A stretch of DNA of 64,000 nt. It comes from Ylistrum balloti. Taxonomy: Eukaryota. Each line of letters opens with the position of its first letter. The stretch's first letter is position 1. A program made the position numbers. Positions 12,001-15,000 of the stretch are shown piece by piece. The stretch spans positions 62,001 to 126,000 of the forward strand of contig NW_026782600.1 in assembly GCF_031769215.1 (NCBI RefSeq), written 5' to 3'.

Positions 12001-15000
12001 GATCTGACAGCAAATTTCTGGCTCAAACAGGTATAGTATCAAATGCATGTGGCTCCAACAATCAGGCAATATACAGTGTAAATCGTAAGGCAATATAATA
12101 TATGTACCAACAGTTGGACAATTTCTGGATTTTGTGCTCATCAAATCCACTCTTACAGCTAAGTAATACACAGCTACAAGACCTAAGCAAGACACAATTT
12201 CAGTCATCCAAGCGGTTTGTACATAAAAGAGAAGACACTAAAATGAAACTATCCTTGCATTCAAAAAGTAGAGGACAATATTTAAATTTATTCTATTTTC
12301 ACTTTCTCGGATCTTTCATCTGTTTTTACCTCCTTCTTCAGCCTCAGATTAACTTTTGCTGTATATGACAACCTAGCTACTTTTATGAAATGTTCATGCT
12401 ACTATGAAATTTAATGCTAATGCAAATATTATTTTACTACAGTCATATGCATCAACTCTATATTTGACTATTTGACTGACAAGAAAATCCAGCGTGTCTA
12501 GTATGATATTCCTAGAGCATCACATTCGAGTTCACATTTTATATCAGACTTAAGAGTCTTTGGAATTTTTCAAATTTCATAATCCATTGATAAAATAGAA
12601 TGAAATATTTCTGATAAGTTTAAAAAAAAATCTCAGGAAATGGATGCTTGTGATAATTTTTATTACATTACTTTGATACTTTAGAGTCATGAAACAGCAT
12701 TTTATTTGACTAATTCAGAATCTAAACTGACGACATTCGTGCTCCATTTCTTTCTCTTTGATGACATCATAATGCATTTGATGCTAATGAATTTATGACA
12801 TTACAACAAAGACAATGGGACCCTTCAGCTAATGTCAGCTTTTCTAGGTGTCGTAACACAGGTGATTATAGCAATATTTATGTAATGGGTGTTATTACAC
12901 ATTAGCAGGGTAGCTATGTGATAAATAACCATTCAGGATCTAACACACGAAATTTGGTCAGCTGTCCCCCACAGAAACAGTTGAGTGTACACACCGGTAC
13001 ATTAATTCATTATCTTGTTATCAATTTCTTATTTCAATAACAATTCTAACAGTGAAAACTTTAAGCTTCTAAAATGTACTTGTAAAAACAAATGCAATCT
13101 AATCTATCATTTTCTATTTGTACAAGTGGCTGAGCCCCTAAGCACACTGCAATTCTGCAATGAATCAAAATCTCAATGATAAAAAAACATTTGTTGAAAG
13201 GACTAAATTCCATATGGTTAACTCATAACCATGGGCTAAGGACCAATGGGCACTGACAGTAGCAAAAGATTCCATAATATAATGTACCTGTACATCAAGT
13301 ATGTTTGTTTTCTCCATTTCAAAAAAGGGAAAAAATTAAAGGGGGGAACAAACAAACATGACACAGATTCTTTGTTGTAACATGTCAGATGAAGTTTTTC
13401 TGAAGTACTCGGGGTTGGGCTGTAAACATGCATGAAGAAACTGGTCAATCTACACCTGTTGCATCCATTCTGTTACTGTTGCTGACGGTAGATTTATAGA
13501 TGACATGCAGGCCAAGACCCAGGCAGACAGAATGGACAGTGGATGTAGACAGGTCATGGTATACCATGCAGTGTTAGGGACCTCTGTGGTCTACAGTCCG
13601 TAACAATGTCAGTTCATCACCATGCTTATTCTAACTAAACTATCTCAAGGACATCACAACAGACAAAAAAAATATCTTTTTTGGAATGGAAGACTATTTT
13701 AGAAATTTAAGATGTGAATTCCATTCAGGATGATGGTTCCAGACACAATAGGTTCTCTGCTAACAGTCCGAGTGATGGGTGCTTTGCATTAAGTTGGACT
13801 GAACTGAGCATTTCCACATCACTGACAATCTAACCATCATTCACTAAACTACAAAGATGGTCATCAAATGGTTAGTTTGGAGATATGATTGATAGGATGC
13901 AGAGCGTGCCGTTAGTCAAGGGATCAACTTGCGGTGTGAGAGATGGACTACCAAACCGACGCCAATATTGTCACAATGGAGTGAACTGCAGGCAGGACAC
14001 CATGCCATAATTACTTCTTGTGATGTCTCCAAATCCGATTATGCAGGTCCCGCATCTTGTCAAAACCTCCACTCTTCCCCTTTGTTGACACTTTCCTCTC
14101 AAAGAATGACTTTAATATCTGGATCTTGGAAATGGGAACAAACTTTTTTGTTGCTGGTGGGATGTCTGGTTTCTTCTCCAGCTGGTCTGTATTATTACTT
14201 GACTGACAGCTATCCGTGATGGTACCAAGGGAGGGAAGGAACTTCCGTAGACCGACCTTTGGACTGACACTACATGATCGATCTGGTGGAAGGAGTCCCA
14301 AAGTGTCGGACTGGTTACGCCTGTTTTTCAGGTGACCAGCTTTGCGGTCCAGGGTCATACTTGTTGTCAGGCTCTTTACAAAGTAGTTGGCACGAGGATC
14401 TGCACTAACGATAGGAGGACTCGCAGGGATCTCCAAAGTAGGGCTTAGAAATGCACCCAAAGGAGTTGTCCTGGTTTTTTTGGCCTCAAGCTGCAATCTT
14501 CAGAAACAGAAAGAGCAAGTAGAAGCAACAGCAAGCTAGAAGCATCTGATATAGAGAAGTGTCTTCTTTGTTATGTGAAAGACATGTTACCTACCAAATG
14601 ATTTTTTAGCTAGTCAAGATAAATGAATCGAATAGGTCTCATCTGAGTCAAATATGTCCAGAGGAAAAGAAAAAACTTGCTTTCATACCAGTTACGTCTG
14701 TCTATTAAAGTTTTTCACTCTCTATAATATTTGTATTGTTTAAATGAATGCCTGGTTAGCAGGCAACAACTATCATCCTGATATGTACTCCATTTACTAA
14801 GGGGGCATTTGTTCTAAAGGTAGAGATAATATCAGAAAAAAGTGTAAGACTACCATTCCCTTCATTCCAGTCCAAGCCAACAAGAACTATTAGCAAGGAT
14901 TTAACATTATGATCATATATGAAGATTTAGTCAACATAAAGTTGATACCATTCTGTCCTTTTGATCTGTTTTCAAACCTAGAATAGAGAAATCAATGACT

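What the first reader, a model, noticed from the sequence alone, without database searches (positions are those of the whole stretch)
14015..14497. Unrecognised 161-aa insert exon between the SNRK UBA region and its regulatory tail
Seen: an ORF bounded precisely by an acceptor and a donor, symmetric phase 2-2, while exon 4 can also splice directly in frame to the last exon. Known (from recall): vertebrate SNRK joins these two exons directly. The insert is Ser/Pro/Lys-rich, with basic RxxS-type sites (RRNQSDT, RSCSVSP) and a putative amphipathic helix SKIQILKSFFERK. Inference: a lineage-specific splice module giving long and short SNRK isoforms (808 aa core, up to 985 aa with both cassettes).
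Basis: partly seen in the sequence, partly recalled or inferred. Interest (0 to 1): 0.68.

Follow-up and report, generated by a model that had tools for sequence, protein, structure and literature searches.

The report
Unannotated conserved cassette exon in scallop SNRK
The 483-base stretch is a real protein-coding exon of a scallop SNRK kinase gene that this species' public gene model leaves out; other molluscs' gene models either include or skip its counterpart, so it is a genuine but fairly ordinary alternative exon of unknown function.

Summary
Window 14497-14015 (minus strand) is a stop-free 483-nt exon with AG/GT borders and phase 2-2, lying between the UBA exon and the last exon of an SNRK-type kinase gene. 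The window is from the scallop Ylistrum balloti: its 824-aa public model (P0008) matches six window exons exactly but lacks this exon. The peptide is 84% identical to a block in Mizuhopecten yessoensis isoform X1. A recognisable counterpart sits at the same place in SNRK models of 24 named mollusc species: bivalves, gastropods and an octopus. Eleven of these species also have models without it. No hit was named as non-molluscan. The block matches no Pfam family or solved structure. It is basic, Ser/Thr/Pro/Lys-rich, and keeps four short conserved motifs. My reading: an old, mollusc-wide alternative cassette that adds a disordered regulatory linker. Inclusion in Ylistrum itself is inferred, since no read data were available. 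It is a new member of a known kind, of modest interest.

The parts
14015..14497 (-). The 483-nt insert exon (161 codons with its junction codons), phase 2-2. It is absent from the Ylistrum model P0008.
   Evidence: It is 84% identical to residues 375-531 of Mizuhopecten X1. A local profile of the module finds it in 38 of 66 proteins at E<=1e-23.
14498..14499 (-). Acceptor AG, in the context ...ctttctgtttctgAAG|A. An AAG acceptor is weak.
   Evidence: The Mizuhopecten X1 protein begins the block with the same L-Q-L-E residues, which fits this acceptor and not the CAG 7 nt downstream.
14013..14014 (-). Donor GT (GAA|GTAATT, no G at +5).
14461..14487 (-). Motif A, a basic block E-A-K-K-T-R-T-T-P. 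K[KR].[KR] occurs at this position in 32 of 39 module sequences.
14341..14385 (-). Motif B, Y-F-V-K-S-L-T-T-S-M-T-L-D-R-K. T-L-D-R is invariant in alignment A1.
14218..14280 (-). Motif C, R-S-C-S-V-S-P followed by G-L-R-K-F-L-P-S-L-G-T-I. Pro79 is invariant. [ST]P occurs here in 25 of 39 sequences and the R..S form in 11 of 39.
14092..14148 (-). Motif D, a basic run then S-K-I-Q-I-L-K-S-F-F-E-R-K. I125, L128, F132, E133 and K135 are invariant in A1. It is a putative helix, which was not verified.
   Evidence: No structure prediction could be run.
16892..17068 (-). Exon 4 (UBA end and linker, ending ...LALSP + AG). Its phase-2 donor feeds all the cassettes.
   Evidence: exact match in P0008.
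15870..15917 (-). A 48-nt mini-cassette, phase 2-2, used in the Ylistrum model P0008.
   Evidence: It was found in none of the other 65 proteins.
11867..11938 (-). A third cassette of 72 nt, phase 2-2, absent from P0008. It is the counterpart of the 24-aa block of Mizuhopecten X2.
7087..8392 (-). Last exon (434 codons plus the junction codon and the stop), with a phase-2 acceptor inside a tandem CAG|TAG.
47268..47862 (-). Exon 1 (start codon and most of the kinase domain).
   Evidence: Pkinase E 5e-53; exact match in P0008.
37719..37860 (-). Exon 2 (kinase domain).
17797..18003 (-). Exon 3 (end of the kinase domain, hinge, start of the UBA domain).

Best explanation
Window 14497-14015 (minus strand) is a genuine coding exon of the Ylistrum balloti SNRK gene (SNF-related kinase, of the AMPK-related family). 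It is the orthologue of a 140-180-residue block that mollusc SNRK gene models either carry or lack immediately after the UBA exon. It is therefore an old, mollusc-wide alternative cassette. Inclusion inserts a basic, Ser/Thr/Pro/Lys-rich and probably disordered linker between the kinase-UBA unit and the C-terminal tail. The linker carries four conserved short motifs. Skipping leaves the shorter architecture. What is shown: the exon anatomy, the orthology, the presence and absence of the block among public models of relatives, and the lack of any known domain. What is inferred: that Ylistrum itself splices the exon in, in some tissue or stage. What is inferred and weakest: that the motifs act as docking, phosphorylation or localisation sites that tune where the kinase goes or how it is controlled, without changing the catalytic core.
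For: The gene is identified by Pkinase hits on exons 1-3 and a weak UBA_SIK3 hit on exon 4. The last exon is 100% identical to the Ylistrum balloti 'SNF-related serine/threonine-protein kinase-like' record P0008. All six P0008 exons are exact in the window, and P0008 lacks the insert. The insert peptide hit 7 of 7 mollusc SNRK-type kinases at E<=0.01: Mizuhopecten X1 at 84% identity, 100% coverage and E 3e-79, four oyster species (five records) at about 50%, and Nucella at 36%. It is present in 27 of the 53 SNRK-type proteins collected and absent from 26. A local profile splits all 66 proteins cleanly: 38 at E<=1e-23 and the other 28 at E>=0.5 or no match. In same-species long/short pairs from 10 species, the extra block starts directly after ...LSPR (the exon 4 end) in 9 species and six residues later in Magallana gigas. 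It is 140-180 aa long. P0009 is an 806-aa form without the block on a 2,614-nt contig. That length leaves no room for introns, so the record is transcript-like. Identity to other species is of the same order as for the constitutive last exon, though always lower: 84 vs 89 in Mizuhopecten, 46 vs 52 in Magallana, 32 vs 41 in Octopus. A tree of 25 named module pieces recovers Pectinidae, Pteriomorphia, the heterodont clams, Heterobranchia and Caenogastropoda with strong support, which fits vertical descent. The insert's splice sites (AAG acceptor, GTAATT donor) are weaker than the four constitutive donors GTAAGT, GTAAGT, GTAGGT and GTATGT, as is common for alternative exons. That last point is general knowledge. 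Composition is pI 10.3 with 29 K+R against 13 D+E. Conservation falls in short blocks separated by indel-rich spacers.
Against: There are no RNA reads or transcripts of Ylistrum, so inclusion in this species is untested, and its only public model lacks the exon. The long and short forms in relatives are mostly automatic gene models. That such isoforms rest on transcript data is my recollection of the NCBI pipeline and was not checked here. I found no transcript-like record that contains the module: the five records whose only source is 'lgn', which sit on short contigs (P0009, P0044, P0050-P0052), all lack it. Absence outside Mollusca is weak evidence. The profile search scored only the 8000 candidates sharing most words, and non-mollusc spiralians contributed only one named protein, from Owenia. 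The function is pure inference: there is no Pfam family, no PDB relative and no Atlas lead (best score 0.80).
Confidence: 0.72

Rival explanations
1. The exon is a relic in Ylistrum. It was inherited from the mollusc ancestor and is still open by descent, but it is no longer spliced in, so this species makes only forms without it.
For: The only Ylistrum model (P0008) lacks it. No 100%-identical protein carrying it exists in the 5.8-billion-protein collection. Its splice sites are weak.
Against: The 161-codon frame is intact, with 84% amino-acid identity to Mizuhopecten. All residues that are invariant in alignment A1 are retained. Identity is close to that of the constitutive last exon. An open frame of this length is uncommon by chance (17 of 200 simulations).
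Confidence: 0.12
2. The exon is constitutive, and the models without it, including P0008, are annotation errors or minor products.
For: No read data were seen here. Several non-RefSeq models (Solemya, Potamilus, Patella caerulea, Mactra, Pinctada) show only the long form.
Against: Forms without the block are annotated in 11 species alongside long forms. P0009 and four other records on short contigs, with 'lgn' as their only source, lack it. P0008 joins exon 4 to the mini-cassette and then to the last exon.
Confidence: 0.1
3. It is a chance open frame, an exonised repeat, or a separate small gene nested in the intron.
For: Several unnamed short ORF-like proteins (P0054-P0059, P0061, P0063; 109-204 aa) consist of little more than this block.
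Against: At least three of those short records (P0057, P0059, P0061) run on into non-homologous flanking residues that look like translated intron, as raw ORF calls on genomic DNA would. In 30 longer proteins the block sits in frame inside an SNRK kinase. The window holds no second copy. The exon has compatible phases and AG/GT borders, and no start codon at its beginning.
Confidence: 0.02

Closest known systems
Mizuhopecten yessoensis 'serine/threonine-protein kinase par-1-like isoform X1' (P0001, 968 aa), with isoforms X3 (P0010, 810 aa) and X2 (P0011, 834 aa)
   Same: It is the same gene. The block at residues 375-532 of X1 sits at the same junction after ...LALSPR and is 84% identical. X3 skips straight to the last exon. 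X2 carries the counterpart of the window's third cassette.
   Different: The Mizuhopecten block is 3 residues shorter. None of its three isoforms has the Ylistrum mini-cassette. The Ylistrum record has a single model without the insert.
Vertebrate SNRK, as described in the review PMC7508454 (passages read)
   Same: A kinase domain is followed by a hinge and a UBA domain, then a long C-terminal tail of unknown structure. The T-loop threonine has Leu at position -2 (seen in exon 1 as L-E-T).
   Different: No protein named as non-molluscan matched the module in a phmmer scan of 1.84 billion representatives or in the profile search. In word searches of the review, 'splic', 'exon' and 'invertebrate' did not occur, and the two hits for 'isoform' belong to other proteins' names.
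Regulatory sequences downstream of the UBA domain in other AMPK-related kinases, such as the autoinhibitory sequence (AIS) of SAD/BRSK kinases (PMC4686854; only the search listing and the start of the abstract were seen)
   Same: It is a short non-domain segment after the UBA domain of an AMPK-family kinase, which could regulate the kinase-UBA unit.
   Different: There is no sequence similarity and no evidence of binding here. The SAD AIS is not described as an alternative exon in what I saw. This is an analogy only.

Membership tests
SNRK (SNF-related kinase, AMPK-related kinase family): the host gene | N-terminal Ser/Thr protein kinase domain | tested here: met
   Pkinase E 5.2e-53 on exon 1, with continuing matches on exons 2 and 3.
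SNRK (SNF-related kinase, AMPK-related kinase family): the host gene | UBA domain directly after the kinase domain | tested here: inconclusive
   Exon 4 alone gives UBA_SIK3 at E 0.0024 and 18.3 bits, below the 27-bit cut-off. The collection's precomputed Pfam list for the full-length record P0008 includes PF23312.
SNRK (SNF-related kinase, AMPK-related kinase family): the host gene | Orthology to proteins named SNRK | tested here: met
   The last exon is 100% identical to Ylistrum balloti 'SNF-related serine/threonine-protein kinase-like'. Most of the 52 hits carry the SNRK name.
Alternative cassette exon | AG/GT borders and a length divisible by three with equal phases, so that skipping keeps the frame | tested here: met
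   483 nt, phase 2-2. The exon 4 donor and the last-exon acceptor are also phase 2.
Alternative cassette exon | Both inclusion and skipping observed in transcripts of the same species | not testable with these tools
   No read or transcript data exist here for Ylistrum. In relatives, both forms exist as public protein models in 11 species, and one form without the block sits on a transcript-length contig (P0009).
Alternative cassette exon | Coding sequence conserved across species | tested here: met
   84% identity to Mizuhopecten and 27-46% to 14 other molluscs. Residues are invariant in alignment A1.
Any described protein domain family | Significant match to a Pfam model or a solved structure | tested here: not met
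   Pfam gave 0 families at E<=0.1. The profile against PDB gave 0 hits at E<=1. The best Atlas score was 0.80, which is below the level of a lead.
Classical monopartite nuclear localisation signal (consensus K-K/R-x-K/R, recalled) | A basic tetrad matching the consensus, conserved | tested here: met
   K[KR].[KR] occurs at window residue 6 in 32 of 39 module sequences. This is a pattern match only; nuclear import was not tested.
PP2A-B56 docking motif (consensus [LMFI]xx[ILV]xE, recalled) | Match to the strict consensus | tested here: not met
   The strict pattern occurs at residue 128 in 1 of 39 sequences. Only a loosened pattern with F/Y at position 4 fits all 39.
14-3-3 mode-1 site (R..[ST].P, recalled) | A conserved match | tested here: not met
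   No position has the pattern in more than 3 of 39 sequences.

The most novel reading that the evidence does not exclude
Molluscs may have kept, since before bivalves, gastropods and cephalopods split, a private alternatively spliced regulatory module in SNRK. It has no named family and is built from four near-invariant short motifs: a basic K-K-T-K/R tetrad, KSLT.SMTLDR, an S-P site and the hydrophobic SKI.IL.SFFE.K block. It would act as a switch for the kinase's localisation or self-control. In Ylistrum the short form may be routed through a species-specific 16-aa mini-cassette, because direct skipping would replace the otherwise conserved junction arginine with serine.
Probability: 0.4. 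Interest if true: 0.45.

Novelty: new member of a known kind. Interest (0 to 1): 0.3.

Why it matters
For genome annotation, the Ylistrum balloti SNRK locus has at least two conserved coding exons (14497-14015 and 11938-11867) that its single public model omits. For kinase biology, everything after the UBA domain of SNRK is poorly understood. A block that molluscs have kept and that their gene models either include or skip gives a defined handle for asking what the post-UBA region does. That handle is four short motifs, several with invariant residues. The block has no name in any domain library. It is still an ordinary kind of feature, an alternative exon encoding a disordered linker, and its counterparts are already present in public protein models of related species.

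Tried and rejected
- **Complex prediction.** The kinase-UBA part (P0001 residues 1-374) was folded against the module (residues 375-532). The verdict was 'no answer' (score 0.22, mark 0.34), so it counts neither for nor against binding. The tool noted that the partner's own fold was uncertain.
- **Structure prediction.** The long isoform (alignment A2) was not accepted three times. The helix in motif D and the disorder of the rest are therefore unverified.
- **Domain and structure libraries.** Pfam, the PDB profile search and the Atlas gave nothing usable for the insert.
- **Mini-cassette as a duplicate.** I tested whether the mini-cassette duplicates the insert's 5' end, since both begin L-Q-(E)-L-E. 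The DNA alignment shows no real similarity, so I rejected the idea.
- **Other conserved cassettes.** A tblastn of 64 of the 66 proteins (two unrelated repeat proteins left out) against the intron 8420-16880 found only three homologous pieces. The extra block of about 40 aa seen in oysters has no counterpart here.
- **Motif scan.** The strict B56, 14-3-3 mode-1 and PP1 RVxF patterns are not conserved. An AMPK-family substrate-like pattern at residue 40 fits 21 of 39 sequences, and a 1-5-10 calmodulin-type spacing fits 17 of 39. Both are too patchy to build on.
- **Irrelevant or empty scans.** The bacterial promoter/terminator scan does not apply to a eukaryote. Rfam gave 0 hits in the window. 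Pfam on seven other intronic or upstream ORFs gave 0 families.
- **Literature.** Searches found no paper on mollusc SNRK isoforms or on a linker cassette. One search was swamped by plant SnRK papers.

Full report
**What the window is.** The window has no N and is 35% G+C. On its minus strand lies a kinase gene.
- Exon 1 (47862-47268) matches Pkinase at E 5e-53. Exons 2 and 3 continue the domain. Exon 4 gives a weak UBA_SIK3 match.
- The last-exon peptide is 100% identical to the Ylistrum balloti record 'SNF-related serine/threonine-protein kinase-like' (P0008, 824 aa).
- Ylistrum balloti is a pectinid scallop. The sequence is not human.
- Translated one at a time, six window exons are exact substrings of P0008: exon 1, exon 2 (37860-37719), exon 3 (18003-17797), exon 4 (17068-16892), a 48-nt mini-cassette (15917-15870) and the last exon (8392-7090).
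- I did not build or search a joined protein of the window. The full-length sequences used for comparison are database records.

**The observation.** It is confirmed.
- On the minus strand there is a pyrimidine-rich tract and AG at 14499-14498, then the exon 14497-14015 (483 nt), then GT at 14014-13.
- The frame is open for 162 codons, and the exon is phase 2-2.
- The exon 4 donor and the last-exon acceptor are also phase 2, so direct joining is in frame.
- An open frame this long occurred in 17 of 200 simulated windows. Length alone is weak evidence; homology decides.

**Homology.**
- The peptide hit 7 of 7 mollusc SNRK-type kinases. These were Mizuhopecten yessoensis isoform X1 (84% identity, full coverage, E 3e-79), four oyster species in five records (about 50%) and the gastropod Nucella (36%).
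- No 100% match exists, so no protein model of Ylistrum in that collection contains the exon.
- Among the 53 SNRK-type proteins gathered carry the block and 26 do not.
- Carriers come from 24 named species: 14 bivalves, 9 gastropods and Octopus sinensis.
- A tree of the 25 named pieces, window included, recovers the accepted lower-level clades. This fits descent from a mollusc ancestor.
- Identity of the insert to other species is always the lowest of the coding exons, but of the same order as the constitutive last exon.

**Evidence for alternative use.**
- Eleven species have both a model with the block and one without it: Mizuhopecten, Mytilus, Magallana, Ruditapes, Mercenaria, Dreissena, Gigantopelta, Biomphalaria, Aplysia, Babylonia and Octopus.
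- I compared long and short forms in 10 of these species; Dreissena was left out because its long record is partial. The extra block begins directly after ...LSPR in 9 species and six residues later in Magallana. It is 140-180 aa long. The Mytilus comparison is fragmented because its short form carries another small segment there.
- P0009 is an 806-aa scallop-like protein without the block on a 2,614-nt contig. That length leaves no room for introns, so it is transcript-like evidence for the form without the block.
- I found no transcript-like record with the module.
- That NCBI isoform models rest on transcript data is my recollection, not a result here.
- For Ylistrum itself, inclusion is inferred only.

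**Distribution.**
- A phmmer scan of 1.84 billion representatives gave 12 hits. Ten carry the module: two named mollusc kinases and eight unnamed short ORF-like records, at least three of which run on into residues that look like translated intron. The other two are unrelated repeat proteins.
- A profile of 17 module pieces gave 23 hits, all named mollusc kinases.
- The annelid Owenia, the insect Ischnura and three of the four other records whose only source is 'lgn' (besides P0009) lack the block.
- This negative evidence is weak. Only the 8000 candidates sharing most words were scored, and few non-mollusc spiralians were available.

**Anatomy of the block.** It is basic (pI 10.3, 29 K+R against 13 D+E), and K, S, P and T together make up 39% of its residues. 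Conservation sits in short blocks between indel-rich spacers:
- Motif A is E.KKT[KR]T.P.
- Motif B is [YF]F.KSLT.SMTLDR[RK], with T-L-D-R invariant.
- Motif C is an S-P site, extended in pteriomorph bivalves to R-S-x-S-V-S-P...R-K-F-L-P-S-L-G-T-I.
- Motif D is a basic run followed by SKI[AQ]IL[KS]SFFE[RK]K.

The R..S form of RSCSVSP is found at that position in 11 of 39 sequences. No Pfam family, PDB relative or Atlas lead exists.

**Mechanism.**
- Shown: a frame-preserving cassette placed between the catalytic kinase-UBA unit and the tail.
- Inferred: it adds a disordered segment whose short motifs recruit partners, are phosphorylated, or change localisation.
- Leads, all pattern matches to consensus motifs recalled from memory: the K-K-x-K/R tetrad fits a minimal nuclear-import signal in 32 of 39 sequences. 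[quoted passage not shown]
- The invariant L..[FYL]FE resembles the PP2A-B56 docking motif but fails its strict form (1 of 39). The same review reports that SNRK phosphorylates PPP2R5D, the B56-delta subunit.
- A test of intramolecular docking to the kinase-UBA unit gave no verdict. It counts neither way.

**Rivals.** The exon could be a relic no longer used in Ylistrum (confidence 0.12), a constitutive exon missed by annotators (0.10), or a chance or independent ORF (0.02). Each is settled by junction reads.

**Comparison and novelty.** The closest known thing is the same exon in Mizuhopecten isoform X1 and its counterparts in other mollusc models. The feature therefore already sits in public protein sets, though without a family name. 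I found no paper about it. It is unannotated in Ylistrum, as is a second conserved cassette at 11938-11867. I file it as a new member of a known kind, of modest interest.

**Not done.** I could not examine reads or transcripts of Ylistrum or orthologous DNA for dN/dS. Structure prediction, the cluster look-up and the vertebrate exon structure also remain open.

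Noticed in passing
window 11867-11938 (-): A third in-frame cassette of 72 nt, phase 2-2, with AG at 11940-39 and GT at 11866-65. It is absent from the Ylistrum model P0008. Its tblastn match to the 24-aa block of Mizuhopecten isoform X2 is 81% identical over 27 aligned residues. Related blocks beginning V-[KR]-Q-R occur in Mercenaria X2, Haliotis X2, Patella X4 and Biomphalaria X3.
   Followed up: partly
window 15870-15917 (-): The 48-nt mini-cassette is used in P0008 but was found in none of the other 65 proteins examined. 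It may be specific to Ylistrum or its near relatives. It shows no DNA similarity to the insert's 5' end.
   Followed up: partly
window 16892-16893 with 8392 (-): Exon 4 ends in AG. With the first base of the insert, the mini-cassette or the third cassette the junction codon is Arg, but with the first base of the last exon (T) it is Ser. Arg at this position is invariant in the 20 long isoforms of alignment A2 and is present in every short form whose linker was printed, including P0009 and P0010. Direct skipping in Ylistrum would therefore change a conserved residue. This may be why its model routes through the mini-cassette. I infer that relatives have a CG-type Arg codon here; this was not checked.
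   Followed up: no
window 8390-8395 (-): The last-exon acceptor is a tandem CAG|TAG, so two acceptors 3 nt apart would both keep the frame.
   Followed up: no
window 20895-21732, 24120-25388, 28284-29131, 43710-44332, 49829-51919, 52050-52550, 58299-59528: Large minisatellite arrays (periods of 30-173 nt, up to 65 copies) lie in the SNRK introns and upstream of the gene. They account for several long open frames that are not genes.
   Followed up: partly
window 18390-18560 (+) and 34830-35000 (-): Two copies of an interspersed repeat lie in opposite orientation, both inside intron 2. The 298-column alignment has a mean column identity of 80%, and the best-matching core is about 170 bp. Pfam finds nothing on their ORFs.
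   Followed up: partly
P0005, P0006, P0002, P0014 (oyster proteins): Oysters have a further block of about 40 aa after the module, or in its place in Magallana X4. Some oyster forms also have a 6-aa extension after ...LSPR. Neither has a counterpart in the window. The stretch between the UBA domain and the tail looks like a hotspot for small alternative exons across molluscs.
   Followed up: partly
P0007, P0064, P0065, P0066: Four gastropod gene models of 550-699 aa (two from Nucella, plus Bulinus and Elysia) are much shorter than the other module-bearing models. P0007 and P0066 end within five residues of the module's end. They are probably models cut at the large intron rather than real short proteins.
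   Followed up: no
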